Notes: generated by a model not told the origin, from the sequence alone. Positions 19,088-42,402 are shown, numbered from the stretch's first letter. The stretch is 64,000 nucleotides of DNA from an uncultured Candidatus Saccharibacteria bacterium (GCA_964631935.1 CAZWAV010000001.1:291595-355594); one strand, 5' to 3'. Numbers and translations are program-made.

Positions 19088-19108
19088 TATTCCCTGAATT
19101 CTATTTAA

Positions 19109-20224: not shown

Positions 20225-20330
20225 AATAAATTGCTAATAATTGATAATTGTATACATACTACTTTATGTGTTTATTTTAACATATTTAATAGGTAAAAGA
20301 TACGAAAATAATCACTCTGTGGATAACTTA

Positions 20331-21347: not shown

Positions 21348-21750
21348 TTGTAGGATTACTTATAGGCGCAGTTTCTATAATTTTATCTATACTAGGACGA
21401 TAAAGCACTGCGCGCCCTGCTTTACTAAAAATAAGAACCTTATCCCCTTTTTGAGATTGAGTAAAAAAAGATTGATTCTTGAGCGCTGTTGGATCAGAAA
21501 CAGTTGCGATAGTTGGTTCTTCACCAGTGGGTATCAAATATAATCTTGCAACTTTACCAAGTAAGTCTTTTGCTTCTTGTTTACTTTTATCATTTACAGC
21601 TATGTCTTTTTGTATGGTATGTAGTTTGTAATAGAAATACCCACTCAAACAAAGAGCAATGACTACAATTATCATCATAACAAGATTTATAAATTTTTGT
21701 TTAGTCATTGGAATTTTTAGTTTAGTTGTATCTATGTCTATAGATGTCAT
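21286..21750 (-). CDS. Small single-pass membrane protein
   Basis: 154 aa. N-terminal TM helix (LVMMIIVVIALCLSGYFYY), a periplasmic domain and a Pro/Thr-rich C-terminus. It lies between the giant gene and the TS-rich paralogs. Confidence 0.45.
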   Translation of the reverse strand: MTSIDIDTTKLKIPMTKQKFINLVMMIIVVIALCLSGYFYYKLHTIQKDIAVNDKSKQEAKDLLGKVARLYLIPTGEEPTIATVSDPTALKNQSFFTQSQKGDKVLIFSKAGRAVLYRPSIDKIIETAPISNPTNDQNTTPPETTSDPIKDKSF

Positions 21751-30800: not shown

Positions 30801-30894
30801 TAAAAATTTTTTTCACAGGCTCGTACTTTGGTAAACTAGATAGATAGTCGACTAAAGTTAGTATTGATAGAGATACTACGTAATTATACCCCAA
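21817..30894 (-). CDS. Giant (3025 aa) surface protein built from autotransporter-associated/PATR-type beta-helix repeats
   Basis: N-terminal hydrophobic segment (IRIFAIFFAIAFSLSL) then AEAATRTWTG. Dozens of repeats of the form (GxGTLTLSGANTYTGxTTINAGTLxLG..NALG). The composition is heavily Gly/Thr/Ser/Ala/Asn-biased and Cys-free. There is a long internal duplication and poly-Gly tracts near the C-terminus. The + strand Pro/Val-rich ORFs across this interval are antisense shadows. Confidence 0.8.
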   Translation of the reverse strand: MGYNYVVSLSILTLVDYLSSLPKYEPVKKIFTNPIRIFAIFFAIAFSLSLNVNRAEAATRTWTGTTSTAWSVGSNWSGGTAPVTGDDLVFPNGASNLSNTNDFIENTIFNSITFSGSGYTLSGNPIILGAGLAGITDSVASGGNTIALDIRLDVTRDIVVTNTAETLTISGRIAGVGGINKEGTGELVLSGANTFGGVLKINVGVVNAQNDRALGTNGSTTNGTEVVGGAALELQGTINIGYEALALRGYGVSNGGALRNVSDNNTFGGLITMIAGGAEIDSDSGTLTITGGMSGAFPLVIDGAGDITYTTAPIGIGSGTVTKNGSGTLKYNFPNTYTGTTFINAGILLYGIDNALLSSSVTVNAGTLDIASYSDMLGGTVTLGTTDLSSGTITGTTGVLSAVSWTLNAGTISAIIAGDGSSLTKNTLGTVTLTRPNLYTGNTSVAAGILKIQDSTALGLIDGVTTVTSGATLQIDGSGLSVPEYITFSGTGHLYTGAIRNMTGDNTITGLLTISGTANMIESDTGTTLTIDSKGLSATTLGLVVGGAGNVTFTETAPIYGTTATLTKNDTGVLTMEGFSNFTGATNLSRGEIVLNSAGAIPNSTITIGSGGTLTLDNTSTTILNRISDTAALTMNGGNFNFIGNTSGTAYETAGALTPASGHNVVTVTPGAGGSTTMTFASLSRTAGATVLFRGTSLGSPPAANVSTVLFTTAPTLTGAAGAANSSTISVIKGAFGDNSLSGTGTDMVTYNVGNTNGLRLLNSTGFSGEYSSTLTTNTNVKLIADTAASTVSINSLILNGYDITNASATITMASASLAGNILINSANNIAGASTTIGITTNELDILATANSTISAVIGTAVAGSLTLSGSGNITLSAANAFTGLTAVNNATLTYGASNVLSSGGVTVVGGTLDIAGNSDTVGAVTLQNGTITGTSGILSGTSYSLREGTVSAILGGGAATVTRIATSAAADSVVTLTRDNTYTGVTTITSGILKLGGTGGGTNTPLGTTGTGTTIANGGALDLNGYTLGTAEAITSLAGTGFGASGGSNMGAIMNSSASPATYSGALTLTAAARINADAGTMTISSDISGNFALTFGGFSDITYSGVRSGTSTLTKDGIGTLTLSNGNSSYTGATTISVGTVKLGAVSVGGTNSPLGTTAGITTVATGARLDLNGYSLGIAEPLTLNGVGYGLGDFASGALMNSSGSTVTYSGLITLGSATTIKADSGTINLTAAGTITGANTGLVLGGTGNGTLSSIIGTTGGTLTKIGAGTWTLSGASTFTGATSINVGTLKMGATGSTTNTPLGVIAGATSVLSGAVLDLNGFTLTAAEPLTTNGRGISDGGAIVNSGGALTYSGAITQATDTRIANSGSGLVTFTGGASGAFALYLSGTSNIAFSTGVIGIGAGTVTKQGSGTLTLTGTETYTGATRVDAGTFAYGSNVTVLAATNLTVAGGIFDMAASTDTIGSVTLVGGTIQNGTLTAAASYTLESGTISAVLAGAIPVAKNTNNTVTLTGANTISSGTAINAGTLTLSGSGSAVSTTITVNLGGTLTLDNSATAVASRLGDALALTLNGGNFNFIGNASGASSETTGALAPSSGHSVVTITPGAGGSTTMTFASFSRTAGATILFRGTSFGSTPAANVSTLMFTTSTGLLTGAAGAANSTTASVIKGAFGDNSLSGTGTDMVTYSLGNTNGLRLLNGAGFSGEYSTSLTTNTNVKLSADTTASTVSINSLILNGFAITNPGSAATITISQASLAGNILINSATNIAGANTTLGIGALELDILATNTSTISAVIGTATTGSVVLSGSGNVTLSAANLYTSTTFINNATLTAGASNVISSGGVTIVGGMYNLNANSDTVGTITINAGSIATGAGTLTGNGTFTTIANNNVASIITGNLGLGANATFTIGDGLMDNDAVISAVISGGFTFGKAGAGVLELAGSNTYTGLTTISAGTIRLGAAGGATNTPLGTTAAGTTVASGFSLDLNGFTLGTAEALTISGTGVGGKGALMNTSSTAVTYSGLITLGAAATITANYGTMTLSNTGSMTGTGFALTLRGLGNGVLKTQVNTSTAGSLVKNDAGTWEIWGDSNYTGVTTVSFGLLRLGAAGGATNTPLGTTAGATTVASSAMLDLNGFTLGTAEPITINGSGIANTGAFINSSNNSISYTGAVTLGAASRIANHGTGMTTLTGNISGNFALTVVAVGNFTQSTNSVWSGSGTLTKEGSGTLILAGQNTMTGAMTVSTGTLQLGANGGATNTPFGTIAGGVTVSAGAVLDLSTYSVGGASTWEPLTLAGSGLLNGGALISNSSTGSTFATLSQTSSRIVNNGAGVLTITGAVSGASSFWVGGSGPTTISGNMGTAGIVLTKYGAGTLTLTAANTGASGGVRINEGTLAYGIADALSTPTVSVAGGTLDLKGFNETNISTVTLIDGSIVSTGGAATLTSTQQFILEKGTISAVLGSALAGGMAKNTAGRVILSGDNSFTSTSIALNAGYLNLQHSNALGASGTSLTTTISGGATLELQNNITLPSTKLITANGTGVNNTGAIRNVADSNTISANVTLGTTNVRINSDSGTLTFPTMSGNTFNAIFGGAGSTSVTGIISTTSGNLTKDGAGTLTLSGANTYSRPTMILGGTIVANATAALGDGTSTNTLIFNGGTLQASGTITSLSTRAVTLTGNGTIDTNGNSVSIAGTVGSAGGLTKAGLGTLTLTGVTTIGGNLTISDGTFVAPTSLTINGDFSNSGTFTHSNGTVTFVPTNSTLTANILGSSNTTFYNLTNTTAGSTLQFKAGNTYTFANTLTLTGIEGNPISINSDTPTSQWLMTLSGSSSISYLKVKDSGCSGGNTVGASTNIYDYGNNGVCWSFITITKSGGGGNIESSATPDGDQGGGGGGGSGGGGATTAIATAVVSSNIVQSVTINSGGSGYTSVPTVLFCGGGGSGALGTAVLTGDAVSSVTVDNGGSNYTTVPSVVFNSNCPTTGGGGGGGGSGGDIGFLYKIKRMLVFSEPFGLSIFRKYL
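25250..26250. repeat. Copy 2 of an ~1-kb intragenic segmental duplication inside the giant gene (about 85% identical to 28080-29080; offset ~2.82 kb)
   Basis: Antisense ORFs 24779..25423, 25442..25822, 25856..26089 and 26147..26431 are colinear and highly similar to 28100..28492, 28502..28909 and 28958..29218. In the sense protein the blocks LTLDN..GGNFNFIGN(T/A)SG...GHxVVT(V/I)TPGAGGSTTMTFAS(L/F)SRTAGAT(V/I)LFRGTS..LAGNILINSA.NIAGA.TT(I/L)GI occur twice, about 940 aa apart. Confidence 0.7.
28080..29080. repeat. Copy 1 of the intragenic segmental duplication
   Basis: See the partner entry. The constant ~2.82-kb offset between matching antisense ORF segments indicates a near in-frame duplication. 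Confidence 0.7.
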
Positions 30895-30964: not shown

Positions 30965-31669
30965 ATGACTAGTGAAATATATAAAACAATTGAAAGTGAA
31001 AGCATCCGTAGACAATGGGATAAGGAGAAGAATATTTGGTACTTCTCTGTGGTAGATGTCATAGGTATAGTTACTAGTAGTACTGACGCTAGAAATTATT
31101 GGAAAGTACTAAAGAATAGATTAAATAAGGCTAATCCGGAGTTGGTTACAAGATGTAACCAACTGAAAATGCCATCAAGCGACGGTAAAAGTTACCTGAC
31201 TGATGTTGCAGACAGTGAGACTATATTAGAGATTATCCGAGCAATTTCTATCCCCTATGTTGCCCCTTTTAGAAGATGGTTTAATGATATTGAATCACAG
31301 TCTAGTCCTAAAAATGAATACGAAGAAGAAACAGAAAAGGCTGAGCTTACAATAGATGCATACGAGACAGACAAAGATATAATTTTAGAATCTATGGTCG
31401 CAGGTGTATCAATAGAAAATTTATCTATCTCTATAACTTTGAGCGAGGTTATTATTTCAGGTAAACGATTAATTCCAGAGAATATATCTCACCTAGATTA
31501 TGTAATCCAGGAAATTTATTGGGGGGCATTCTCTCGCACGATTCCCTTGCCTTCCGAAATAGATATAGATGAGGCGCAAGCGAGTATAGAGCATGGATTG
31601 CTTAAAATAAAGTTACCAAAAATAAATAAACTTCGCACAAGAATAATAAAAATAAAATCACTTGGCTAA
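30965..31669 (+). CDS. Two-domain protein: Bro-N-like N-terminal domain fused to a C-terminal alpha-crystallin/Hsp20 domain
   Basis: 234 aa. The N-terminus (IRRQWDKEKNIWYFSVVDVIGIVT) resembles the Bro-N/KilA-N DNA-binding fold. The C-terminal ~100 aa are a clear sHSP alpha-crystallin domain (IDAYETDKDIILESMVAGVSIENLSISI...ISG.R........Y...E...GAFSRTIPLPSEIDIDEAQASIEHGLLKIKLPK). Confidence 0.6.
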   Translation: MTSEIYKTIESESIRRQWDKEKNIWYFSVVDVIGIVTSSTDARNYWKVLKNRLNKANPELVTRCNQLKMPSSDGKSYLTDVADSETILEIIRAISIPYVAPFRRWFNDIESQSSPKNEYEEETEKAELTIDAYETDKDIILESMVAGVSIENLSISITLSEVIISGKRLIPENISHLDYVIQEIYWGAFSRTIPLPSEIDIDEAQASIEHGLLKIKLPKINKLRTRIIKIKSLG

Positions 31670-31690
31670 TTAGCCAAGTGATTTTATTTT
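31653..31690. terminator. Bidirectional rho-independent terminator between convergent genes (aaaatcacttggctaa/ttagccaagtgatttt)
   Basis: Perfect 16-bp inverted repeat at 31655-31686 with A/T runs on both sides. It sits exactly between the stop of the Hsp20-fusion gene and the stop of the beta-lactamase-like gene. Confidence 0.6.
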
Positions 31691-32640
31691 TATTTACTAG
31701 TATTGTACGCATGCTCTGAAATTTCTTTCATTAGTCCTCTTGCCCAAGCTCTCGTTTCTTCTGTGGAATCTTTTCCTTTAATTATGACAGTAATCATATA
31801 TGGTTTCCCTGGAATATATACAATCCCTGAATCTGCAAAAATATTGTACTCTATGTTCTCGCCATACTTATGTGCAAATTTAACATTAGAAGGAATACCT
31901 TGCGATAGGTAATCTTTGAATGTCGCTTTGGACATGTAATCTAAGATTTTTTCAGATAATTCTGGACGTAGAAAGTTTGAAGTATAAAGTACTCGCAGTA
32001 GACGTGTATATTCTTTTGCGGAAACAAATCCTTTCTCATTATACAAATCCTGTAAGCCTACTTTTTCCTGAAAAACAATATAATCAGAAAAATCTAGTTG
32101 GTGTTTAAATATATTTTGAGCAGTATTGTCTGAGTTAACTAGTAACTCTTCTAATAGTTTTTCTACTGTTATCGGCTTATCCCCGATAGTTTTATACAGA
32201 GCCCCTGAATCAGAAGAGAGATCAGCTGGGTCTGCTTTAAGCTCTGTACTCCAAGACAAAGCTCCACTTTCAACCTTTTTTGCAATAAGTATTGCTTGTA
32301 CAAGTTTACTTAAAGATGCAGGAAATAGATGCAGATCTTTATTTACGCTTATGTTTGCTCCAGAGTTAATATTTTCATAATAAATAGAGATATTGTCTGG
32401 ATTTTTTTTACCAAAATCCATTAAATATGAACGTAAATCCTCTATGTTAGTTAAATAATTTTCTTGTGGAATAAACTTTTGAAGTGGGTCGAGCATCGGA
32501 AATTCTGTATCTTTGACTGGGTTAAGGCCAAAATATTGTGGTGAAAACCATGCAGCTATTGGTATGCACAAAGCAAGTATGAGCATAAAGATTCTTTGCT
32601 TTTTAAGTTCTTTAGATAATCTTTCAATTTCCTTATTCAT
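31690..32640 (-). CDS. Membrane-anchored serine hydrolase of the class-A beta-lactamase / penicillin-binding-protein fold
   Basis: Start set at internal MNKEIERL (ATG at 32638-32640), followed by a TM helix. The SxxK motif (PASLSKLV), the SDN motif (NSDNTA) and a KTG-like KYG motif are present. The upstream Gln/His/Leu-rich 72 codons of the track ORF overlap the giant gene's Pro-Thr tail and are judged non-coding. Confidence 0.65.
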   Translation of the reverse strand: MNKEIERLSKELKKQRIFMLILALCIPIAAWFSPQYFGLNPVKDTEFPMLDPLQKFIPQENYLTNIEDLRSYLMDFGKKNPDNISIYYENINSGANISVNKDLHLFPASLSKLVQAILIAKKVESGALSWSTELKADPADLSSDSGALYKTIGDKPITVEKLLEELLVNSDNTAQNIFKHQLDFSDYIVFQEKVGLQDLYNEKGFVSAKEYTRLLRVLYTSNFLRPELSEKILDYMSKATFKDYLSQGIPSNVKFAHKYGENIEYNIFADSGIVYIPGKPYMITVIIKGKDSTEETRAWARGLMKEISEHAYNTSK

Positions 32641-32683: not shown

Positions 32684-35600
32684 TTAAGCAGATGTGGTTG
32701 AATTAGTATCAGGTGTTGGTTCTGGTGTAGGTACAGGATCTGGGGTTGGAGTTGGTGTTGGGTCTGGTGTAGGAGTTGGAGTAGGTGTCGGTTCAGGAGT
32801 TGGCACAGGATCTGGGGTTGGAGTTGGTGTTGGATCTGGTGTAGGAGTTGGGTCAATTATTATGCCTTCGATAACACTCTGGAATACTTGAGGATCACGA
32901 ACAGAGAGTGCGTTCCACGAGAATCGTATATCACGTGGAGCTGGTTTATTTAGTAGTATTGTAAATCCTGTTTGATCTTTTGATACGATTATAAATCGTA
33001 CGTCATTAGTAAATAGTGCGGTAGCCTGAGTATCGTCTACATTATCAGAACTTTCAAATGTTACAGATGTATTTACGACAGGTGTTGCTATGTATGCCTG
33101 ACTAAATACTACATGGACTCTCCTATCACCTTGTTTAACTAGAGCATATCCTGCAGTATCTTTATTATAAAGTGGTGGGACTACAAATTCAGTTTGACTA
33201 TTGAAAGTAGAATTATTTGCAAAGTTTATAAGACCATTGAATGTGGTATCTCCACTAAATGTTGCTCCACCTGTAACAGTAAGCGTATTCGTATTGAGAG
33301 TATTTAGAGCACTAAATGCATTCGCAGCAAGAAGTGCTTCGACAGCTTGGAGTCGTGTATTTATATCTGTACCGCTTGCAACAAGTCCTGAGACTGTTGT
33401 ATTCGTACCATCAACATCTGCTTTGAGTTGAGCAACATCTGCTTGCACTACTGTAAGCGCTCCTGATAGAGTGTTCATGACTGATGCAGTAAGGGTGAAA
33501 GCTTCTTGGCCTTGCGTAAGATTATTTATCTGATCAGTGATAGCTTGAATACCCGCAAGATCAGCAACTTGGATTTTCTTTGCTGTCACTGTGCCAGCAA
33601 ATGTAGCATTACCTAAACTATCAAAAGTTATCGCTGGTGTGGTTGTCTGTCCACCAATTGTAAACTTACCATTATCGCCAAGAATCAGACCTACATCTTT
33701 ACTCTCTCCGGCGCTAATCTTATTAACCTCCACATTATCAGCGACAACTTTCGGAGTAATCACGACACCAGCTGCAAGCCTATCTAGTAGAAGTTCGGAT
33801 GAAGAAGAATTACCGCTCTGTCCATTTTCTAAGAACTTCTGTAGTACTTGTCTTGCAAATACTCCATTGTCAATTACAGAAATTCCAGCAAATTCACTTA
33901 TGCTTTGGCCATCATAGAAACCTTGTTCAACATATACCATTACAGTAGAAGATCCAGAATTTGGTGTCCATGCTTCAAGTGCCTTACCTATAACGAAACC
34001 TCCCTTTGTGGCTTTTGTTGCCTTACCTCCTTCATCTGACGTAGTGACGTAGTCTCCAGGTGCTATAGATTCTGATGAAGAAGAGACTTTTACAGGCACG
34101 CGACCATTAAGCGCAATAGGCATAGGATTATCAGAATCTTTTATATTATGTCCAGCAGAAGTAAAGTCTCCATAGTTATCAGCGACAATACCAATGACAT
34201 TTCTCTGATATTTCTTATTTGATTTTACTAATCGAGTAACTTTACCTTTTACTTTGGTCCAATCGACATTACCATCGGTACTATCATAAGTATTTACCAT
34301 TTCTGTACCAGTAGTGACAATATCTCCATATTGTGTACCACTCTCTACTGGATACATCTCGGCGTAGTCAGCAGCCGGAGCTGCATTACAATCTCGGATT
34401 TCATATGCAGTACCAGCCGTAGGAGCAGTAGTATTCGCCAAGCTAGAACATACAGCATTTGTACTTGCTGTACCAGAGAGACCCATACTTACTACACCAG
34501 CACTTGTGACTTTAAATTTTAGAACACTCGCATTTTTGAAATCAAGGAAGTTTCCTGTAAAGGAAGTTGATCCACCACTTACTGCCATATCCATCAAGAG
34601 TGCATCTCCAGTAAACGCTGATGTATCATGATAGACTTGAAGCATTGATGGTGCAGAAGTCATAGAGCCAGTATAAAATCTTGCAACATCTCCTTGGGTT
34701 GTTCCTGTATTTTCTGCATACAAAGCAGCGGGCAATGCTACTCCTCCTGCAGAACCGTTAGTAAGAGCTTGGACGCCAAACGTTGCTCCAGTTGATCTGA
34801 TACCAGTGTTTGTACCTGCCGTATTACTACCAGCATTTGAAACAATTTCAATTCCGCGCACAAGGTTTGCAAGAGATGTATTATCTACTGTTCTTATTAC
34901 TTCCCCGACCATCGTATTGGCATTGGTCGTTGGCGCATTATTAAAAACAAAACGATTACCCACTTGTACATAACTAGCAGTACCTCCATTATTAAATGTG
35001 TAGTCACCGTGAATTCCGGCTATTGCAGTAGTCGATCCAGTTGAAGCCATAGTGGAAACGATGTTTAATTTCGCGAGCGTTCCTGAAGATAGTGTGGTAC
35101 CACCGAGGAGTGTCTGTCCTGCATCAACATTGAGTGCAAGATTTGTAGTACCACCAGATGCTGTTGTATAGAGACCGACATTCGTCGTAGCTGCTCCAGT
35201 ATTTGAGAAATATCCAGCATAGTCAGTACCAGTAGTTCCACCAGTTTGACCGATGTTGAGTGCTTTGTTTGATGCAGTAGTTGATGCAGTAGTTGCTCCG
35301 AGGGTTGTCCCGTCGTAAGTAAAGTTTGCACTTTCAGATAATATATTTGAACCGTTTTCGTACAAGACACGATTTGTAGAACCACTAGTTATAGCAGTTG
35401 TACCGACAGTAAGCCCACCTCCTGACCCACAAGCCGAAGCTGCAGCCGTTATGACTCCGGCATTATCTGTCTGTACACATTTTGTTCCCCCGCCACCGAG
35501 ACCAGAGAATGTAATTGTTCCTGATGATGTGATACCAGCCGCAGCAGCAATCACTCCGCTCGAATTAACCTGGAAGAGATCTCCGCTTCCAACAGTAAGA

Positions 35601-38600
35601 AGTGCATTTGGAGAAGTGTCACCTATACCGACATTACCTCCATCAAATATTCCGGCATAGTTTGTGTCTCCACCTGAGGCAGTTACATATATACCAATAT
35701 TTTTCAAAATGTTACTACCTGCAACTTCTGTAGCTGTTGCATTGAAATATCCAGCATAAGCGACAGCATCCCCTGTTGTTGTATTTATAGAAGCATTACT
35801 TGTATCTCCATAGATACCGTAACCAGTCACAACTCCTGAACCAGAACCTTGATATGATCCCCATATAGCATATCCACCATCGCCCGAGGCAAAACCTTTA
35901 ACTCCAGCAGAACCAGCTCCTGTGCCTGCATCTCCAGCAACACCAACTGCACTCGAAGTAAACCCAATAGCTGTTCCTGATACACCAATATGTCCTTTAC
36001 CCCAGACACCGTAGTTATTATTTGAGTTTATTGTAGCTTCACCATATACTCCATAATTCTGTGATGTACCAGCTGACGCTACAGCATATAGACCATAATC
36101 TTTTGAAGTTGTACCATCGTGAGCATTTGAAATATAAGCACCATATGTAATTTGGTTTGAAGTAGCATTTGTACCAGAGAGTGATATATTTAATCCTTTT
36201 TGGGTATTTGATGCGGCAGCAGTTGAAGTCGATGAAATGTTTAATCCTGTACCTGAAGAGAGACCGTTAACCACAATTGACTGACCGATACCTGTTGTTA
36301 ATCCAGAATACGTTTGTAAGAATTGTGTACCTGCAGTTGAGGCCGTTGACGATAAATCAAGCAATGCACCTGTAGTCGTAGATGTATCAACTGATGTTGA
36401 TGTTAGTTTTAGAAGTGATCCGCCGTTTGCAATGACGGAAGTCGTATGCGAAAGAAGTAATTCCTGGCCAGTAGTTAGTGAATTATTTATTATATTGAGA
36501 CCAGTCTGGGTTGTCGCAGTCCAGGTCATAGTTTGTGCTGTTGTACCAAAGGCTATGTCGGCACCTGTCGACGGATCGCCAATTGCATCCCAAGCAGTTG
36601 CTCCGCCAGATCCACAAGCTGCGGCGGCGGCCGAAATCACTCCAGAGTTATCCGTTTGAAGACATTTTGTTCCACCACCTGCAAGACTCGATGCAGTAAG
36701 AGTGCCAGTACTACCAATTCTTAATTTTTCTGACATTGCTGTACCACCTGACTGTGTGAGGAAGATGAGGTCACCTGTTTCAGAACCAGCAGTATTCGTA
36801 AGGTTAGTAATTTGAATACCAGCACGAGAGACTCTGTTGGTACCGTTAGTTGCCGTAAATATAAGTTGATTTGTATTGTCTAGAGATACTCCAATTACTC
36901 CGGTTGTCGCTGCAATCGTGTTGGTAGATATTAGTGGTGTCACATTTCCCCCAGCGTTAGTCGTTTTATATGTCACAGCAGAAATCCCAGAACTTCCTCC
37001 TAATAGTTGGGAACTCGCCGATGATACACCTGTTACTGAAAAACTAGCACTTGCTGCCAGTAAGTCGCTAAAAGTAAAGCTAGGATTTCCTCCTACACCA
37101 TCAAACGTAACTATTCCTCCGGTACTAACGGTCGTTGAATAATAATTAGATACGTCATAACCAACTCGCAATTGTTCAGTTGTATTTAAAATATGTAGCG
37201 ATGCTGATGGTGCTGTTGTGCCAATACCCACATTTCCTGCATCAAAGATGCCGGCGTAATTATTTGAGCCACCTGTCGCTGTTGCGTAAAGTCCCACATT
37301 TGTTGATGTTCCTGAGTGTGTATTTGAAATTCTTGCACCATATGTTGTCTGAGCTCCGGTACCGTTAACACCGGTAGTGAGAATATTGAGTGCAGTTTGA
37401 TTGGTAAGAGATCCCGTACTTGAAATTTGGAGATCAACAAGTTTTCCAGAAGTAAATGTATTTCCGGCTGCGGCGTAGAATCCTGTACCTGTTGTGAGAG
37501 AACTTCCATTCAATGCAACGATAGAGGATGTCGTTGTCTGGCTATTGTTTGCAGAGTTAAGAGATACATTACCGGCAGAACTTACTTGGAATTCAGAACC
37601 TCCTCCAACAGAGAAGAGGGCTGATGGAGAAACAGTGCCTATACCAACATTCCCTCCGTTTGTCACAAGTGCGTAATTAAGAGACCCTCCACTTGCAGCA
37701 AGTTTGAGGCCGTAGTTTGTACCAGAGCCTCCATGTGCATTTAAAATATTCGCCCCATAAGTAGCTTGAGCGCCAGTCGCATTGACTCCTGAAAATTGAA
37801 TATTGAGACCTGTCTGGTTTGTCGCAGCTGCAGTTCCACCAACTGAAATGTCAATTATTCTACCACTTGTAAGTGATGTTGATTCCAAATACATACTGGT
37901 ACCGGTAGTGAGAGAATTTTCTGCGATTGAAAATGCTGATGATGTACCTGTTTGTGTTGTAAATCCTGAGCTCTGGTTATACTGACCATAAATAAAAGCG
38001 CTACCAGTATAAAGATTGCTCCATGGAGCACCTGAGCTACCTAGGTCGTAAGTAAGTCCTGCATTAGGAATAAGTGATTGATTAATAGATGTCGTAGTGA
38101 GATTTGAGAGCGCAGTGTTTGCGGCACTTCCTCCTCCATTGGAGTGAACCATCAACCAATCCGTACCATTTGATTGCCAAGAAATTTTTTCGAGTGGTTG
38201 TAAAGTATAATTTGAAACAAGAGCTCCTGTCTGGTCTTCAACTCTTCCGGCTCCTCCATCAATAACATCTACAGCTTTAGTTGACGTATTTTTCACTATC
38301 GTATATATACGATTTGTCACAGTTGTTGCGTCAGGGAGAATTACACGAAAACCAGCACTTACTGATGAATTGATATTGTAGACATACCCTGGATCAGTCG
38401 TGACGTTGTAGTCAGCACCGAGAACGTCGAAGTCTACGTATTTATATTTCGCACCGAGAGTTCCGTTAATATCAACTGATGATAATGGTGTAGCGGTATT
38501 AATACCAAATGATCCATTACTACCAGTATTAGTAAAATATGCCTTTGAATTCACATCATCAATAGTAAAAAAATTTCCATTACCTATAGCATCAATATCA

Positions 38601-39217
38601 CCAAATTTATAAAGATTACTAGAAGTATCAATAACAAATAGATTATTACCACTATTTTGAATAGAAAAATTATTACCACCTGCTTCTATTAGCGCATTAC
38701 TAGTAAGTGTTCCCCCCAAGTCAACCGCAGTCCCGTTTGCTGTTGTACCAGAGCCATTCGTTAATGCGAAGGAACTACATGTTGACCAGGATGGAGCAGA
38801 CGAAGTATTACCGACTAGACATTGGCCAGTTGTACCAGCAGCGGTGACTTGAATAGCGGATGTACTATTTCCATACAAGATTCCATTTGAAGTAAATGAT
38901 CCTGCGCCAGTTCCTCCTTGGCCGACAGTTACGAGAGCATTGGTTGTGAGTATTGTCGCGTTCGCATCTGGGAATGTATAAGTACGAACTGCGGTCTGGT
39001 TGTTTGTAACCGCAAATACTCCATCACCAACTTCAATCCATGGGTGACCAGGGTTTGGAGTTGTCGCAGAAGCAAGGCTTACAAGAGAAAAAACAACTAG
39101 GAGAGAAAGTACTGTATATGCAACATAGTGAAACGAAAATCGCGGACGAAGTTTTCGTAAAATTTTCTTCACAAATGTTAGGAATTGTTGATTGTTGTTT
39201 TCAAACATAAAATACAA
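32684..39217 (-). CDS. Giant (2177 aa) secreted/anchored fibre-like protein with NVGIGT-type motifs and a C-terminal Pro-Thr repeat tail
   Basis: N-terminal signal-anchor (VAYTVLSLLVVFSLVSLASA). Long Gly/Thr/Ser/Asn/Ala-rich beta-rich body. Three copies of GGNVGIGT(V/T/D)SPSAL-like motifs, as found in phage tail-fibre or endosialidase-chaperone-type proteins. A globular C-terminal region is followed by a coiled-coil-like segment and (PTPTPDPTPTPTPDPVPTPE)n. Confidence 0.75.
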   Translation of the reverse strand: MYFMFENNNQQFLTFVKKILRKLRPRFSFHYVAYTVLSLLVVFSLVSLASATTPNPGHPWIEVGDGVFAVTNNQTAVRTYTFPDANATILTTNALVTVGQGGTGAGSFTSNGILYGNSTSAIQVTAAGTTGQCLVGNTSSAPSWSTCSSFALTNGSGTTANGTAVDLGGTLTSNALIEAGGNNFSIQNSGNNLFVIDTSSNLYKFGDIDAIGNGNFFTIDDVNSKAYFTNTGSNGSFGINTATPLSSVDINGTLGAKYKYVDFDVLGADYNVTTDPGYVYNINSSVSAGFRVILPDATTVTNRIYTIVKNTSTKAVDVIDGGAGRVEDQTGALVSNYTLQPLEKISWQSNGTDWLMVHSNGGGSAANTALSNLTTTSINQSLIPNAGLTYDLGSSGAPWSNLYTGSAFIYGQYNQSSGFTTQTGTSSAFSIAENSLTTGTSMYLESTSLTSGRIIDISVGGTAAATNQTGLNIQFSGVNATGAQATYGANILNAHGGSGTNYGLKLAASGGSLNYALVTNGGNVGIGTVSPSALFSVGGGSEFQVSSAGNVSLNSANNSQTTTSSIVALNGSSLTTGTGFYAAAGNTFTSGKLVDLQISSTGSLTNQTALNILTTGVNGTGAQTTYGARISNTHSGTSTNVGLYATATGGSNNYAGIFDAGNVGIGTTAPSASLHILNTTEQLRVGYDVSNYYSTTVSTGGIVTFDGVGGNPSFTFSDLLAASASFSVTGVSSASSQLLGGSSGISAVTYKTTNAGGNVTPLISTNTIAATTGVIGVSLDNTNQLIFTATNGTNRVSRAGIQITNLTNTAGSETGDLIFLTQSGGTAMSEKLRIGSTGTLTASSLAGGGTKCLQTDNSGVISAAAAACGSGGATAWDAIGDPSTGADIAFGTTAQTMTWTATTQTGLNIINNSLTTGQELLLSHTTSVIANGGSLLKLTSTSVDTSTTTGALLDLSSTASTAGTQFLQTYSGLTTGIGQSIVVNGLSSGTGLNISSTSTAAASNTQKGLNISLSGTNATSNQITYGAYISNAHDGTTSKDYGLYAVASAGTSQNYGVYGEATINSNNNYGVWGKGHIGVSGTAIGFTSSAVGVAGDAGTGAGSAGVKGFASGDGGYAIWGSYQGSGSGVVTGYGIYGDTSNASINTTTGDAVAYAGYFNATATEVAGSNILKNIGIYVTASGGDTNYAGIFDGGNVGIGDTSPNALLTVGSGDLFQVNSSGVIAAAAGITSSGTITFSGLGGGGTKCVQTDNAGVITAAASACGSGGGLTVGTTAITSGSTNRVLYENGSNILSESANFTYDGTTLGATTASTTASNKALNIGQTGGTTGTDYAGYFSNTGAATTNVGLYTTASGGTTNLALNVDAGQTLLGGTTLSSGTLAKLNIVSTMASTGSTTAIAGIHGDYTFNNGGTASYVQVGNRFVFNNAPTTNANTMVGEVIRTVDNTSLANLVRGIEIVSNAGSNTAGTNTGIRSTGATFGVQALTNGSAGGVALPAALYAENTGTTQGDVARFYTGSMTSAPSMLQVYHDTSAFTGDALLMDMAVSGGSTSFTGNFLDFKNASVLKFKVTSAGVVSMGLSGTASTNAVCSSLANTTAPTAGTAYEIRDCNAAPAADYAEMYPVESGTQYGDIVTTGTEMVNTYDSTDGNVDWTKVKGKVTRLVKSNKKYQRNVIGIVADNYGDFTSAGHNIKDSDNPMPIALNGRVPVKVSSSSESIAPGDYVTTSDEGGKATKATKGGFVIGKALEAWTPNSGSSTVMVYVEQGFYDGQSISEFAGISVIDNGVFARQVLQKFLENGQSGNSSSSELLLDRLAAGVVITPKVVADNVEVNKISAGESKDVGLILGDNGKFTIGGQTTTPAITFDSLGNATFAGTVTAKKIQVADLAGIQAITDQINNLTQGQEAFTLTASVMNTLSGALTVVQADVAQLKADVDGTNTTVSGLVASGTDINTRLQAVEALLAANAFSALNTLNTNTLTVTGGATFSGDTTFNGLINFANNSTFNSQTEFVVPPLYNKDTAGYALVKQGDRRVHVVFSQAYIATPVVNTSVTFESSDNVDDTQATALFTNDVRFIIVSKDQTGFTILLNKPAPRDIRFSWNALSVRDPQVFQSVIEGIIIDPTPTPDPTPTPTPDPVPTPEPTPTPTPTPDPTPTPTPDPVPTPEPTPDTNSTTSA
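32694..32891. repeat. Imperfect tandem DNA repeat (period ~18/36 nt) encoding the Pro-Thr linker
   Basis: Repeating ggtgttgg(a/g)tctggtgtaggagttgg units. The antisense frame reads GVGSGVG, which is the spurious + ORF 32694..32891. Confidence 0.7.
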
Positions 39218-39460
39218 CTATATTATATCATAGTTGTACGTGGGAAACAGGCAAAAAACCGTGTTATTTATTCATTTTTATTGAAAACTGTGGATAACTT
39301 TTTCACTTTTTAAAAAAATTATTATTTTGTGATCGTAAATTGAAATCTGACTAAAACTCACGCATAAATTATAGCATATTTATGATAAAAATATGGCTCT
39401 TCCCCACTAATTTTTGATTAAAATTGTGGATAACATTTTTAGGTAATTTTAGGAGATTTT

Positions 39461-41299
39461 TTAGCGAACTTCGAAACCTATAGAAGATAATTTTTCTGTA
39501 ATATGAGACATTATCAAATTCACTTCTTCGATGGTCAGAGTGCGATCGTAAGATTGGAAAATTAATCGGAAAGCATACGATGTTCTTCCCTCTTTTGTGA
39601 ATGTATCTACAAGCCGAGGCTCACCTTGCAAAAGTTCCGTACCAAATTCTTTGTAAATTTCAGATAGTGTTTCTGCTTTCACTTCTTCTGGTACCCAGAC
39701 GGCAATGTCACGAGTGATGAATGGGTACGCGCTCCAGATTTTGAAAAAAGAATCATTTACGAAGTCAGAAGAAAGATTCGACAAATGGTCTGGTTGAGCC
39801 GAAGGCGACCCGAGGACCTGAGTCGAACTTTCTTCTGACGAAGTACTAGAAATGAATTTATCCAATGTCATATCTTTAACTTCTTTTTTATTTGCAAATC
39901 CAACATGTACTTCTTCTCCATCTTTTGTAAAAATAGTTCCGATTTCAAAAATTTTAATTTCATCTATACCAAGAAGTGGTGCATTTAGTTTGTTTAGTTC
40001 ATATGATTGTTTCAATCCATCTGTTAGATTTGTTCGCAAGAATTTCTTGTCAGACGCTGACGCAAGTACTTCAATATCTCCTTTATCCACAAAGGTATAA
40101 GTCATGACTTCTCTGTACCCTGCTTCTACTAAAATACCCCGTGCTTGTGATATCTTTTCATACACCTCGTTTTTCTTTAGATCCACAATAATGCTTGGCA
40201 ATATTGGCTTTATTTTATCTAGCCCATATATACGGCCTATCTCTTCAGCCATATCTTCCTTGCTTACAAGGTCGAGTCGTAGTAGTGGCACAAAGATCAT
40301 GTATTCACCATTTTCTTCTTTGTATTGATATCCGTATCGCATTAGAATATTCGAAATATCATTCTCTGGAACTTCTGTTCCAAGAAGTTTTTCTATGTAG
40401 GATTTTGAAAACTCCAATGTTCGTGACTCTTGTTTATTCGGATATATATCCACCACATCTTCAAATATTGCATCAGGTAGAATTTCTAAAATCATACCCG
40501 TAAGTTCAAGCATTCCAAAATCACAAAGTGATGGGGACAAATCATTTTCAAATCTTTTTGCTGAGTCAGAAAGTAGTCCGAGCCTGCGTGCAGTTTTACG
40601 AACTGCAATAGGATCAAAGTTCGCAACTTCAAGAACAATGTCAGTCGTCATATCGCTTATGCCAGAGTCTAATCCCCCCTTCACTCCACCGAGCGCAAGA
40701 TTCTTTTCCCCATCAGTAATGACAAGGTCGCTATCTTTAAGTTTTGCCACAATTCCATCGCGCCCAACAACTGGAAGCTCTACTCCTTCTTTTGCATTTG
40801 TGATAACAATTTTCTCGCTGGCTAATTTCGCAAGGTCAAATGCATGACATGGCTGACCGCAATCATACATGACAATGTTTGTCGCATCTACGATATTGTT
40901 TATACTTCTCTGGCCGATTGATTCTAAATGCTTTACTACCCACTCTGGTGATGGACCAATTTTTACATTGCGTATTATTCGTGCGGAATATCTCCGACAA
41001 CTTTCTGATTGTATTTCTACTTTCAAATTTGTCGGATTTGAAACTGGAACCTTATACATAGAAGAAGGATCATTGTATTTAATACCAAGTAACCCAGAGA
41101 GCTCGCGAGCTACTCCGTGGTGCGATAGTAAGTCATGAGCGCGGTTCGGCAAAATTCCTAGATCAAAAACGTGATCACCGTCCGCCAACTTTTCAACTGA
41201 TTCAACTTCACAAATATGATATGTGAAAATGTCAGCCAGAGCATTCGGTTCTGGAATTTCAGGCACATACCATTTAAGCCAATTGTAAGAAATTTTCAT
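39461..41299 (-). CDS. pheT: Phenylalanyl-tRNA synthetase beta subunit (shortened form)
   Basis: 612 aa. The canonical N-terminus is MKISYNWLKWYV. B3/B4, B5 and core domains are recognisable. It is about 190 aa shorter than typical bacterial PheT. Confidence 0.85.
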   Translation of the reverse strand: MKISYNWLKWYVPEIPEPNALADIFTYHICEVESVEKLADGDHVFDLGILPNRAHDLLSHHGVARELSGLLGIKYNDPSSMYKVPVSNPTNLKVEIQSESCRRYSARIIRNVKIGPSPEWVVKHLESIGQRSINNIVDATNIVMYDCGQPCHAFDLAKLASEKIVITNAKEGVELPVVGRDGIVAKLKDSDLVITDGEKNLALGGVKGGLDSGISDMTTDIVLEVANFDPIAVRKTARRLGLLSDSAKRFENDLSPSLCDFGMLELTGMILEILPDAIFEDVVDIYPNKQESRTLEFSKSYIEKLLGTEVPENDISNILMRYGYQYKEENGEYMIFVPLLRLDLVSKEDMAEEIGRIYGLDKIKPILPSIIVDLKKNEVYEKISQARGILVEAGYREVMTYTFVDKGDIEVLASASDKKFLRTNLTDGLKQSYELNKLNAPLLGIDEIKIFEIGTIFTKDGEEVHVGFANKKEVKDMTLDKFISSTSSEESSTQVLGSPSAQPDHLSNLSSDFVNDSFFKIWSAYPFITRDIAVWVPEEVKAETLSEIYKEFGTELLQGEPRLVDTFTKEGRTSYAFRLIFQSYDRTLTIEEVNLIMSHITEKLSSIGFEVR

Positions 41300-41706: not shown

Positions 41707-42402
41707 TTAAAACTGATTCAATCTTAAATCTCCTTGGTAAAATAAGCGCACATCAGGAATATTCCATCGAATCATGGCGATACGATCGAGCCCTCCACCG
41801 AAGGCAAATCCTTGAACTTTTTCTGGATCAAGCCCGGCATTACGCAAAACATTCGGATGTATCATTCCCCCTCCCATCATTTCGAGCCACTTGCCATTAA
41901 ACTTAGCATGGACTTCTACCGACGGCTCCGTAAAAGGAAAGAAGCTTGGACGAAATTCTATTTCCACATCTTCTCCAAGCACTTTTTTATAAAATTCCAC
42001 GAGCACACCTTTCATATGTGAAAGATTTACATTCTCTCCAACCATACATCCATCGATCTGGAAGAATTGCATCTCGTGAGTAATATCAGTCGCTTCGTTT
42101 CTGAAAACTTTCCCGATAGAAATAGATGCGAGTTCTTTTATATTTTCTTTGGCCACTCGCTCAAGTGTTCGAGCTGTGACATTTGTCGCATGGGTACGGA
42201 GCACTTGCTCAGGATTTCCTTTCACATAAAATGTATCCTGCATATCACGAGCCGGGTGATCTTTCGGCACATTGAGTGCATCGAAGTTGTACCAGAGAGT
42301 TTCAAGCTCTGGACCTGTCGCAATTTCAAATCCAAGCTTTGAAAACAGCGAATATGCCTCTTCTTGAAGAATTGTAAGCGGATGTTGGCTGCCTTTAGAC
42401 AT
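41707..42402 (-). CDS. pheS: Phenylalanyl-tRNA synthetase alpha subunit (catalytic core only)
   Basis: 231 aa. Class II motifs (FRPSFFPFTEPSVEV, GGGLDRIAM) are present. The N-terminal coiled-coil extension is absent. Confidence 0.85.
   Translation of the reverse strand: MSKGSQHPLTILQEEAYSLFSKLGFEIATGPELETLWYNFDALNVPKDHPARDMQDTFYVKGNPEQVLRTHATNVTARTLERVAKENIKELASISIGKVFRNEATDITHEMQFFQIDGCMVGENVNLSHMKGVLVEFYKKVLGEDVEIEFRPSFFPFTEPSVEVHAKFNGKWLEMMGGGMIHPNVLRNAGLDPEKVQGFAFGGGLDRIAMIRWNIPDVRLFYQGDLRLNQF

What the first reader, a model, noticed from the sequence alone, without database searches (positions are those of the whole stretch)
32684..39217. Second giant protein (2177 aa) with phage-fibre-like NVGIGT motifs and a Pro-Thr repeat tail
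The protein has three spaced GGNVGIGT(x)SPSAL(F/L) motifs. In my recollection these are typical of tail-fibre or endosialidase-chaperone-type trimeric fibre proteins. It also has a globular C-terminal region (DYAEMYPVE...IGKALEAW), a short coiled-coil-like segment and a (PTPTPDPTPTPTPDPVPTPE)n tail. It is separated from the first giant gene only by a Bro-N/Hsp20 gene and a beta-lactamase-like gene. Together the two giants devote more than 15 kb to surface fibres.
Basis: partly seen in the sequence, partly recalled or inferred. Interest (0 to 1): 0.5.

Follow-up and report, generated by a model that had tools for sequence, protein, structure and literature searches.

The report
Phage-fibre-like surface fibre of a CPR bacterium
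This 2174-residue gene of an ultrasmall (Patescibacteria/CPR) bacterium most likely encodes a secreted, three-chain surface fibre built from the same modules as phage tail fibres, ending in a sugar-binding-type tip; it is a plausible host-attachment device and not a prophage gene.

Summary
The likely start is ATG 39208, giving 2174 aa.

The gene is chromosomal. It lies in a housekeeping neighbourhood, and the order pheS-pheT-giant-beta-lactamase-like-Bro/Hsp20-second giant recurs in many of the Patescibacteria MAG loci examined. No phage genes are present.

- **NVGIGTxxPxxxL motif.** It matches the motif stretches of the solved beta-helix domains of Bdellovibrio 'MAT' surface fibres. These stretches correspond to the capping loops their authors describe. 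A profile of the module hits Bd2133 at E 9e-9.
- **Position of that domain.** In phage contigs the same module sits about 120 aa from the C-terminus of tail-fibre proteins. Here it is internal. It is followed by a coiled coil, an H-type-lectin-like domain and a Pro/Thr tail.
- **Relatives.** Some share the N-terminal module but carry S74 instead.

Verdict: a MAT-like trimeric adhesin fibre, a new variant of a known kind. Trimerisation, cleavage, surface location and ligand are inferred, not shown.

The parts
32684..39208 (-). Coding sequence of the giant protein (2174 aa from ATG 39208; the ORF as reported runs to TTG 39217)
   Evidence: Homologues align from codon 4. An identical 2174-aa gene call was made in a JGI metagenome.
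39065..39208 (-). Sec-type signal peptide or signal anchor (aa 4-51): basic n-region KKILRKLRPR, a 21-residue hydrophobic core, then ASA before TTPNPGHPW
   Evidence: Read directly from the sequence. The junction ...A-TTPNPGHPW is conserved in 10 relatives. No signal-peptide predictor was available, so cleavage is inferred.
38768..39064 (-). Conserved N-terminal module (aa 52-150: PGHPW...TFPDANAT...VGQGGTG...GQCLVGNTSSAPSWSTC). Proposed cell-proximal docking module.
   Evidence: BLAST HSPs covering roughly aa 4-147 are 46-75% identical (most 50-75%) in more than 30 relatives, including ones whose C-terminal modules differ. The function is inferred by analogy with MAT fibres.
34370..38767 (-). 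Variable shaft (aa 151-1616), rich in Thr/Gly/Ser/Ala/Asn and made of repeated modules ending in capping-loop motifs
   Evidence: Composition. The module profile hits solved MAT-fibre beta-helices. The shaft is poorly conserved and non-colinear even in the closest relative. The AF2 monomer model was inconclusive.
38474..38515 (-). Degenerate capping-loop motif GSFGINTATPLSSV (aa 235-248)
   Evidence: Regular-expression search.
37607..37654 (-). Capping-loop motif 1, GNVGIGTVSPSALFSV (aa 522-537)
37190..37237 (-). Capping-loop motif 2, GNVGIGTTAPSASLHI (aa 661-676)
35591..35638 (-). Capping-loop motif 3, GNVGIGDTSPNALLTV (aa 1194-1209)
   Evidence: This stretch is 71-76% identical to stretches in S74-bearing relatives P0047 and P0056.
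34367..34372 (-). Predicted autoproteolytic site A1616|D1617 (codons of both residues)
   Evidence: hhalign places AADYAEMY on gp12 WS|DFAEYF. Mature gp12* ends at residue 691. D and E are invariant. Cleavage itself is not shown.
33893..34369 (-). Beta-tulip, phi29-gp12-D4-like (Peptidase_G2-like) autochaperone/trimerisation domain (aa 1617-1775)
33323..33550 (-). Predicted long alpha-helices, a probable trimeric coiled coil (aa ~1890-1965)
   Evidence: AF2 helices at model residues 316-373 and 378-390, block-mean pLDDT about 44-77.
32882..33172 (-). H-type-lectin-like beta-sandwich (aa ~2016-2112), the proposed glycan-binding tip
32687..32857 (-). Pro/Thr-rich low-complexity tail (aa 2121-2177), a 72-nt unit x 2.0
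   Evidence: Most of the 27 relatives listed end in different Pro/Thr/Glu/Asp-rich tails, and a few in acidic, Pro-poor ones. The query has no LPxTG.
31690..32640 (-). Conserved neighbour: membrane-anchored Beta-lactamase2-family protein (316 aa)
   Evidence: Pfam 4.9e-36. Start. Syntenic in relatives.
30965..31669 (+). Conserved neighbour: Hsp20-domain protein with a sub-threshold Bro-N match
   Evidence: Syntenic in relatives.
21817..30894 (-). Conserved neighbour: first giant protein with 16 PATR repeats
   Evidence: 69-74% identical orthologues lie at the same position in many of the MAG loci.

Best explanation
The gene encodes a Sec-exported, homotrimeric, phage-tail-fibre-like surface fibre of a Patescibacteria (CPR) cell. 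It is the functional counterpart of the Bdellovibrio 'mosaic adhesive trimer' (MAT) fibres.

Proposed working, with the status of each step:
1. **Export.** A signal peptide sends the chain across the membrane. The sequence features are shown. Cleavage of the signal peptide is inferred.
2. **Docking.** A conserved ~100-aa N-terminal module docks the fibre to the envelope. This is inferred by analogy.
3. **Shaft.** About 1450 variable residues form intertwined triple beta-helix modules, each closed by a GNVGIGTxxPxxxL capping loop. Homology to solved MAT beta-helices is shown. The trimer is inferred.
4. **Nucleation of folding.** Folding and registration of the three chains start at the beta-tulip domain (aa 1617-1775), which is related to the phi29 gp12 D4 autochaperone. 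The fold and motif are shown. The chaperone role is inferred.
5. **Cleavage.** The invariant D1617/E1620 pair probably catalyses self-cleavage between A1616 and D1617, as at S691|D692 of gp12. This is inferred, at roughly even odds.
6. **Distal module.** A coiled coil carries a trimeric H-type-lectin-like domain that binds a glycan on the partner or host cell. The fold resemblance is shown. The ligand and the orientation are inferred. A disordered Pro/Thr tail follows.

The variable shaft, and the alternative C-terminal modules in relatives (S74 or beta-tulip), point to module swapping that diversifies specificity.
For: **Cellular, not viral.**
- Neighbours are pheS, pheT, HIT, an AddA-like helicase, gyrB, thrS, nusB, RNase R, SMC and SecDF.
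- All 29 genome relatives are Patescibacteria MAGs.
- The order pheS-pheT-giant-blaC-like-Bro/Hsp20-giant1 is conserved in many of them.

**Fibre shaft.** The module profile hits Bd2133 (8OND) at E 9.1e-9, Bd3182 at 4.7e-4, Bd1334 at 7.4e-4 and Bd2439 at 2e-3. The alignments fall on the GxVGxGTxAPxxxLHV stretches, which correspond to the capping loops described in PMC10769870. All 29 Foldseek matches of the shaft model are non-significant, and nearly all are trimeric beta-helix fibres.

**Beta-tulip domain.**
- hhalign aligns AADYAEMY to WS|DFAEYF and IGIVADN to IGVISET, P 1.9e-4.
- D and E are invariant in 29 sequences.
- A DxAE-type string was found in 139 of 139 representatives with a loose pattern search.
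- Pfam Peptidase_G2 is weak in 3 relatives and in one phage homologue.

**Phage link.** In 20 viral ORFs examined, the module starts with a DxAE string (DLAExY in 18) that lies 119-127 aa from the C-terminus in 19 of them. Several of these ORFs hit tail-fibre PHROGs, collagen repeats or the T7 tail-fibre N-terminal domain.

**Module swapping.** Relatives that share the N-terminal or motif modules carry either S74 or the DxAE domain. None of the 13 with a recorded PF13884 hit also has the DxAE string.

**MAT architecture.** The published MAT description is a signal peptide, a conserved ~130-aa N-domain, a beta-helix, and an S74 or alternative tip.
Against: - No direct evidence exists for trimerisation, surface exposure, cleavage or sugar binding.
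- The monomer AlphaFold model of the shaft has mean pLDDT 68 and no DSSP strands. Its fold matches are non-significant, E >= 0.26.
- The query itself has no above-threshold Pfam, NCBIfam or PHROG hit. The beta-tulip and lectin profiles find nothing in the PDB by sequence alone.
- About 560 residues follow the putative cleavage site, including the putative binding tip. Cleavage as in phages would therefore detach the tip from the shaft, so either cleavage does not happen or the orientation or role differs from the model.
- gp12 cleavage is recalled to be ATP-dependent (my memory of Xiang 2009, not checked here). That would be awkward for an extracellular protein.
- Homology of the N-terminal module to the MAT N-domain could not be tested.
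Confidence: 0.62

Rival explanations
1. One reading: this is a prophage or phage tail-fibre gene with an S74 (endosialidase-type) C-terminal intramolecular chaperone that is cut off after folding.
For: The motif modules are shared with S74-bearing proteins that sources name 'tail fiber domain-containing protein'. Distant homologues of the C-terminal domain occur in viral contigs.
Against: - No S74 profile hit at any threshold. The only SDxxxK string is unconserved.
- No match by tblastn in 50,697 phage genomes.
- No phage genes in the 64 kb window.
- The locus is syntenic next to pheST across Patescibacteria MAGs.
- A Sec signal peptide is present.
- The chaperone-like domain is internal.
Confidence: 0.03
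2. It is a MAT-like fibre in which the beta-tulip domain is a permanent, non-catalytic trimerisation clamp, as in capsid decoration proteins. The chain stays intact, and the coiled coil and lectin domain form the distal tip. The conserved D/E pair serves folding or metal binding, not proteolysis.
- Weak Pfam hits go to XM1_gp53 and Phage_cement_2.
- The domain is internal in cellular proteins, with a median of 402 aa following it. An uncleaved joint explains that position most simply, and it keeps the lectin tip attached.
Against: - D and E are strictly invariant exactly at the domain's N-terminal edge, aligned with the gp12 cleavage site.
- In phage homologues the domain is terminal, like a disposable chaperone.
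Confidence: 0.28
3. It is a structural envelope component, such as an S-layer-associated or spacing fibre, or a sheath element, with no role in partner-cell recognition. The lectin-like domain and Pro/Thr tail bind the cell's own wall polymers, which would make the C-terminus the anchor and the N-terminus distal.
For: - The locus is conserved and vertically inherited beside housekeeping genes.
- Both ends are conserved and the middle is variable.
- Pro/Thr-rich C-terminal regions are typical wall-spanning segments in monoderm surface proteins (general knowledge).
Against: - The query has no wall-sorting motif (no LPxTG), and no SLH or other known wall-binding domain was detected.
- The closest characterised relatives, the MAT fibres, are adhesins with a proximal N-terminus.
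- The tails are not conserved in sequence.
Confidence: 0.12

Closest known systems
Bdellovibrio bacteriovorus MAT (mosaic adhesive trimer) fibres, e.g. Bd2133, Bd3182, Bd1334, Bd2439 (Caulton et al. 2024, PMC10769870)
   Same: - Both are cellular (not viral) proteins built from phage-fibre modules in a bacterium that lives on other bacteria.
- Both have a signal peptide followed by a conserved N-terminal module.
- Their beta-helix shaft modules are related in sequence and share the same capping-loop motif.
- Both families have members that end in S74 and members that end in other tip domains.
   Different: - This protein is 2-3 times longer.
- It comes from Patescibacteria, which are generally regarded as lacking an outer membrane (general knowledge), not from a diderm predator.
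- It carries a G2-like beta-tulip domain, a coiled coil, an H-lectin-like domain and a Pro/Thr tail.
- Homology of the N-terminal modules was not tested.
- There are no experimental data.
phi29 gp12 (pre-neck appendage) D4 autochaperone, MEROPS/Pfam Peptidase_G2 (PF11962), PDB 3GQH
- The D-x-A-E motif sits at the domain's N-terminal edge and aligns with S691|D692-F-A-E695.
- The IGxxS and GxxGxxxV motifs are also shared.
   Different: - Sequence similarity is below Pfam thresholds: no hit for the query, and about 5e-4 in 3 relatives.
- The domain is internal rather than C-terminal.
- The upstream part is a thin fibre rather than a right-handed beta-helix enzyme.
C-terminal 'DLAExY' module of uncultivated phage tail fibres (PHROGs 19602, 22593, 6427)
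   Same: Homologous domain, about 30% identical over aa 23-172 of the domain. It has the same D..E, GRV.V.V and IGKALE motifs.
   Different: In phages it lies 119-127 aa from the C-terminus in 19 of the 20 ORFs examined, with nothing after it. Its function is uncharacterised there too.
S74 intramolecular-chaperone fibres (K1F endosialidase, T5 pb1, MyRF)
   Same: According to PMC10769870, these have a triple beta-helix shaft similar to that of Bd3182, and the capping-loop motif also occurs in the S74 protein MyRF. Relatives of this protein use S74 in the same architectural slot.
   Different: This protein has no S74 domain and no conserved Ser-Lys dyad motif.
H-type lectins (Helix pomatia agglutinin, discoidin II, SLL-2) and lectin-fold phage/pyocin fibre tips
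   Different: The query scores below the Pfam cut-off (13.1 bits against 24). Sugar-binding residues were not examined.

Membership tests
Peptidase_S74 / endosialidase-type intramolecular chaperone (PF13884) | Profile match to the S74 domain | tested here: not met
   No PF13884 hit for the whole protein at E<=1 or for six segments at E<=10. The precomputed PF13884 hits are only in other relatives.
Peptidase_S74 / endosialidase-type intramolecular chaperone (PF13884) | Conserved Ser-Lys catalytic motif (SDxxxK) at the cleavage site | tested here: not met
   One SDEGGK string occurs at aa 1727, inside the beta-tulip domain. Its D and K are not conserved among 29 homologues.
Peptidase_G2 / phi29 gp12 D4 autochaperone (PF11962) | Profile match above the Pfam cut-off | tested here: not met
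   The query has no hit. Three of 29 relatives hit weakly, best 4.7e-4, as does one phage homologue at 4.2e-4. The profile finds nothing in the PDB by sequence.
Peptidase_G2 / phi29 gp12 D4 autochaperone (PF11962) | Beta-tulip fold of the D4 domain | tested here: met
Peptidase_G2 / phi29 gp12 D4 autochaperone (PF11962) | Asp and Glu at the N-terminal edge (cleavage before Asp) | tested here: met
   hhalign puts D1617 and E1620 on gp12 D692 and E695. Both are invariant. Mature gp12* ends at residue 691.
Peptidase_G2 / phi29 gp12 D4 autochaperone (PF11962) | C-terminal position and release after folding; autoproteolysis | tested here: not met
   Position: 560 residues follow the domain. Among 139 cellular representatives a median of 402 residues follow it. 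Proteolysis itself cannot be tested with these tools.
MAT (mosaic adhesive trimer) fibres | Beta-helix shaft modules with capping-loop motif | tested here: met
   Profile A4 hits Bd2133 at 9.1e-9, Bd3182 at 4.7e-4, Bd1334 at 7.4e-4 and Bd2439 at 2e-3, aligned at the motif. The motif is described.
MAT (mosaic adhesive trimer) fibres | Signal peptide followed by a conserved ~130-aa beta-rich N-terminal domain | tested here: inconclusive
   This family has a signal peptide and a conserved ~100-aa module.
MAT (mosaic adhesive trimer) fibres | Homotrimer on the cell surface that binds prey or host | not testable with these tools
   Only monomer prediction was available, and the shaft model was inconclusive.
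H-type lectin (PF09458) | Profile match above the cut-off | tested here: not met
   The query scores E 0.11, 13.1 bits against a cut-off of 24. Thirteen of 18 relatives hit weakly, best 4.6e-5.
H-type lectin (PF09458) | H-lectin beta-sandwich fold | tested here: inconclusive
Prophage / phage tail fibre gene | Located in a phage genome or prophage | tested here: not met
   The neighbourhood is housekeeping. Chromosomal synteny is conserved. There is no tblastn hit in phage genomes.

The most novel reading that the evidence does not exclude
The internal G2-type beta-tulip domain is an active self-cleaving switch. After it has templated trimer folding, it cuts the fibre at A1616|D1617 into a cell-bound ~1570-aa shaft and a ~560-aa trimeric piece (beta-tulip, coiled coil, lectin). 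That piece is either released as a soluble host-binding factor or held non-covalently as a detachable tip. This would be a fibre design not described for phages or for MAT fibres. The module would be shared by gene flow between CPR cells and phages: about 27,000 domain representatives exist, and the phage versions are terminal.
Probability: 0.2. Interest if true: 0.65.

Novelty: new variant of a known kind. Interest (0 to 1): 0.45.

Why it matters
[quoted passage not shown] Work so far has centred on type IV pili and a few adhesins.

This locus gives a concrete, widely conserved candidate for partner recognition. It is a phage-tail-fibre-like fibre with a swappable shaft and tip, of the kind shown to mediate prey handling in Bdellovibrio.

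It also draws attention to a very large domain family that no Pfam model captures above threshold. A profile of the 'DxAE' beta-tulip domain finds 27,045 cluster representatives. The family links the phi29-type autochaperone, phage tail-fibre C-termini, capsid decoration proteins and cellular giant proteins.

If the domain cleaves, the family would greatly extend the known range of G2-type glutamic peptidases.

Tried and rejected
- **Whole-protein family scans.** Pfam, NCBIfam and PHROG scans gave only low-complexity noise.
- **Whole-protein search of the PDB.** phmmer matched only the Pro/Thr tail, to internalin K.
- **Profiles against the PDB by sequence.** The beta-tulip profile (A1) and the lectin-like profile (A5) found nothing.
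- **tblastn of the beta-tulip domain** against 50,697 phage genomes: no match.
- **The search for related loci with alignment A1** on genome contigs failed because no stretch was conserved enough. It was redone with a single protein.
- **Self-BLAST** did not report the internal repeats. The repeats were seen instead through homologues that align to several query positions.
- **A combined alignment of aa 45-720** for structure prediction was discarded. MAFFT stretched fragments across the repeats. Only aa 405-720 were modelled.
- **The aa 405-720 monomer model** was of limited use: no secondary structure and non-significant fold matches.
- **A homologue search with the N-terminal module** returned only short fragments and no annotated relatives.
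- **The Xiang 2009 phi29 gp12 paper** is not held. The ATP dependence and mutational data for gp12 therefore rest on memory.
- **Rejected readings:**
  - Prophage: the genomic context speaks against it.
  - S74 membership: no profile hit and no conserved motif.
  - Polymorphic toxin or CDI-type effector: no toxin-like domain was detected in the family scans or fold searches.
  - Sortase anchoring: the query has no LPxTG.

Full report
**1. Observation**

The ORF 32684..39217 on the minus strand is real, with 2177 codons from a TTG. Relatives align from codon 4 onward. A metagenome gene call on 100% identical DNA gives 2174 aa. The start is therefore most likely ATG 39208.

Three GNVGIG motifs lie at aa 522, 661 and 1194, and a degenerate copy lies at aa 235. 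From the protein's composition 0.0013 such hexamers are expected.

- the 'DYAEMY...IGKALEAW' region, starting at D1617;
- long predicted helices at about aa 1890-1965, at moderate confidence;
- a Pro/Thr tail at aa 2121-2177, encoded by a 72-nt unit present 2.0 times.

The neighbours are as described:
- an Hsp20-domain protein with a sub-threshold Bro-N match;
- a Beta-lactamase2-family protein, whose true start is probably ATG 32640;
- a 3025-aa giant with 16 PATR repeats.

**2. Genomic setting**

The window is ordinary chromosome. It encodes pheS, pheT, a HIT protein, an AddA-like helicase-nuclease, an ABC exporter, gyrB, thrS, nusB, RNase R, SMC, SecD/SecF and NDH-2, plus one tRNA-Ser. No phage gene was seen.

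All 29 relatives fetched from species-representative genomes are Patescibacteria MAGs, titled Paceibacterota, Nomurabacteria, Minisyncoccia, Wolfebacteria or 'Saccharibacteria'. In these loci the order pheS-pheT-giant2-beta-lactamase-like-Bro/Hsp20-giant1-small ORFs recurs in many of them, at 45-80% protein identity.

The gene is thus a vertically inherited cellular gene of a CPR lineage, not prophage cargo.

**3. Family and architecture**

A database search returned 73 giant proteins of 1200-3700 aa. Conservation is concentrated at the two ends:
- aa 4-147, the signal peptide plus a 'TTPNPGHPW...VGQGGTG...C-x16-C' module, at 46-75% identity (most 50-75%);
- aa ~1570-1840 and ~2004-2120.

The shaft between them is divergent and non-colinear even in the closest relative (P0001: 74% identity over aa 1193-2121, but only scattered 32-54% matches elsewhere).

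The N-terminus has a basic n-region, a 21-residue hydrophobic core and an ASA motif immediately before the conserved TTPNPGHPW. I read this as a Sec signal peptide. No predictor was available, so that reading is an inference.

**4. The NVGIGT motif**

A second search with aa 380-718 found 66 proteins, all under 600 aa. Ten carry Peptidase_S74, one of them named 'tail fiber domain-containing protein'. One carries Peptidase_G2.

A profile of this module (alignment A4) hits four solved structures, all beta-helix domains of Bdellovibrio bacteriovorus fibres:
- Bd2133 (8OND), E 9.1e-9;
- Bd3182 (8OJN), E 4.7e-4;
- Bd1334 (8OML), E 7.4e-4;
- Bd2439 (8OL4), E 2e-3.

The alignments fall on GNLGLGTAAPTSALHV, GRVGVGTTAPTSALHV, GNVGIGATAPTAKLEV and similar stretches. 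In the paper that solved these structures, loops R656-H669 and F752-H765 of Bd3182 are the 'capping loops' at the edges of the trimeric beta-helix. By position in the crystallised construct, they correspond to the aligned stretches. The authors report a related consensus in other MAT fibres and in the S74 protein MyRF, and they liken the Bd3182 helix to those of T5 pb1 and the K1F endosialidase (PMC10769870).

An AlphaFold monomer model of aa 405-720 was not decisive. Its mean pLDDT is 68 and it has essentially no DSSP strands. Such a result could be expected if the strands pair between chains, but it proves nothing. Its 29 Foldseek matches are all non-significant (E >= 0.26). Nearly all are trimeric beta-helix fibres, namely HylP1/HylP2 and the Bd fibres.

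**5. The 'DYAEMY' domain**

An alignment of 29 homologous segments has D1617, E1620, the G of IGIV, GR of NGRVPVKV, GD of PGDY, and one Ser and one Gly invariant.

Pfam gives only sub-threshold hits:
- XM1_gp53 minor capsid protein, in 10 members;
- Peptidase_G2, in 3 members, best 4.7e-4;
- phage cement proteins.

These are beta-tulip proteins. The gp12 D4 region is a tandem beta-tulip 'autochaperone' needed for trimer assembly (bioRxiv 10.1101/216911).

I translated gp12 from the phi29 genome. hhalign places AADYAEMYPVES on WS|DFAEYFESLD and IGIVADNYGDF on IGVISETAGFV, with P 1.9e-4. Mature gp12* ends at residue 691 (PMC6542822). D1617 and E1620 therefore correspond to D692 and E695, and the predicted scissile bond is A1616|D1617. 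That D692 and E695 are the catalytic pair of family G2 is my recollection and was not checked here.

S74 membership fails. There is no profile hit, and the only SDxxxK string is unconserved.

**6. Distribution of the domain**

The domain profile finds 27,045 cluster representatives at E <= 1e-3 among 1.84 billion. Of these, 21,234 have E <= 1e-10. In the 150 best matches the domain mostly sits near the C-terminal end of long proteins. A loose pattern search found a DxAE-type string in 139 of 139 of the best representatives examined, with a median of 402 residues between it and the C-terminus.

In viral contigs, 58 loci encode distant relatives at about 30% identity. In the 20 ORFs examined, the module starts with a DxAE string (DLAExY in 18). 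In 19 of them it lies 119-127 residues from the C-terminus and the ORF ends in ...IGKALE.F.G..G.IEV.VGR. Several of these ORFs hit tail-fibre PHROGs, collagen repeats, the T7 tail-fibre N-terminal domain or Mtd_N.

Phages therefore use the module at the position of a disposable C-terminal chaperone, whereas the CPR giants use it internally.

Among the 73 relatives, the S74 and DxAE domains occupy a comparable C-terminal position. None of the 13 proteins with a recorded PF13884 hit also has the DxAE string. Some S74 relatives (P0036, P0046) share the N-terminal module. This pattern indicates module swapping, as proposed for MAT fibres.

**7. The distal part**

After the beta-tulip come, in order:
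- a short helix;
- a poorly predicted stretch;
- long helices at about aa 1890-1965, probably a coiled coil;
- a confident beta-sandwich at aa ~2016-2112.

- AP22 gp53;
- the C-terminal domains of several tailspikes.

The search does not report aligned ranges, so this assignment is an inference.

Pfam H_lectin matches 13 of 18 homologous segments weakly (best 4.6e-5) and the query at E 0.11, covering profile positions 2-61 of 67.

Most of the 27 relatives listed end in Pro/Thr/Glu/Asp-rich low-complexity tails of unrelated sequence, and a few end in acidic, Pro-poor tails. The query has no LPxTG.

**8. Interpretation**

The best-supported reading is a Sec-exported trimeric surface fibre of the MAT / phage-tail-fibre kind. 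Its parts, from N- to C-terminus, are:
- a conserved N-terminal docking module;
- a variable triple-beta-helix shaft with capping loops;
- a beta-tulip autochaperone that nucleates trimer folding;
- a coiled coil;
- a lectin-like domain for glycan recognition on a partner cell.

What is shown:
- the gene's cellular context;
- sequence homology of the shaft module to solved MAT beta-helices;
- the beta-tulip fold, with a conserved D..E pair aligned to the gp12 cleavage site;
- the lectin-like fold resemblance;
- the alternative S74 and DxAE modules in relatives.

What is inferred: trimerisation, surface display, orientation, autoproteolysis, ligand and biological role.

The main internal tension concerns cleavage. 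If cleavage occurs as in phages, it would separate the putative tip from the shaft. I therefore give cleavage roughly even odds and list the uncleaved 'clamp' version as the chief rival.

**9. Novelty and score**

Phage-fibre-like adhesins in bacteria are known from the MAT family. Xiang et al. already noted homology of gp12 D4 to 'some bacterial adhesion proteins', as cited. This is therefore not a new kind of system.

What is new is the variant and its setting:
- a conserved Patescibacteria locus;
- an internal G2-like beta-tulip in place of a terminal S74;
- a coiled coil and an H-lectin-like module after it;
- membership of a very large domain family that no Pfam model captures above threshold.

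In the keyword searches I ran, none of the listed papers links Patescibacteria to tail-fibre-like adhesins.

Interest is moderate at 0.45. The locus is a good, testable candidate for partner recognition in CPR bacteria, but all functional claims are inferential.

Noticed in passing
window 49994..53218 (-): A third large surface-type protein (1074 aa). It has a Pel9A-like right-handed beta-helix, two Big_7 Ig domains and a PKD domain. It may be a secreted polysaccharide-degrading or adhesive enzyme.
   Followed up: no
window 21817..30894 (-): The first giant carries 16 PATR (passenger-associated transport) repeats. This repeat is typical of autotransporter passengers of diderm bacteria, yet here it sits in a CPR genome. 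Orthologues at 69-74% identity occupy the same position in many of the MAG loci.
   Followed up: partly
window 30965..32640 and loci L059-L082: A membrane-anchored Beta-lactamase2-family protein and an Hsp20-domain protein are conserved between the two giants in many Patescibacteria MAGs. This may be a functional cassette for wall remodelling or chaperoning of the fibres. The Bro-N match is sub-threshold (20.5 bits against a cut-off of 25.6).
   Followed up: partly
window 39222..39230 (-): An extended -10-like TGATATAAT ends only 13 nt upstream of ATG 39208, and no obvious Shine-Dalgarno sequence lies between them. The mRNA may have a very short leader or none.
   Followed up: no
window 17182..21750 (-): Five ORFs downstream of giant1: 21286..21750, the ~50% identical paralogues 20331..21347 and 19109..20224, 18056..19087 and 17182..18063. 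They have no Pfam hits or only faint Ig-like ones, and they are syntenic in relatives. They may be accessory surface or export components.
   Followed up: partly
viral loci L002-L052 (e.g. L005 7422..8384, L021 6291..8390): Uncultivated phage tail-fibre ORFs end in a compact ~120-aa 'DLAExY ... IGKALE ... IEVVVGR' module. It matches PHROGs 22593, 6427 and 19602, two of which have no assigned function. It looks like an undescribed class of C-terminal fibre chaperone related to Peptidase_G2.
   Followed up: partly
window 41707..42402 and 39461..41299 (-): pheS (231 aa) and pheT (612 aa) are both shorter than I recall for typical bacterial versions (the comparison is from memory and was not tested). 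An HIT-family gene is inserted between them. The same arrangement appears in two other assemblies of identical DNA.
   Followed up: no
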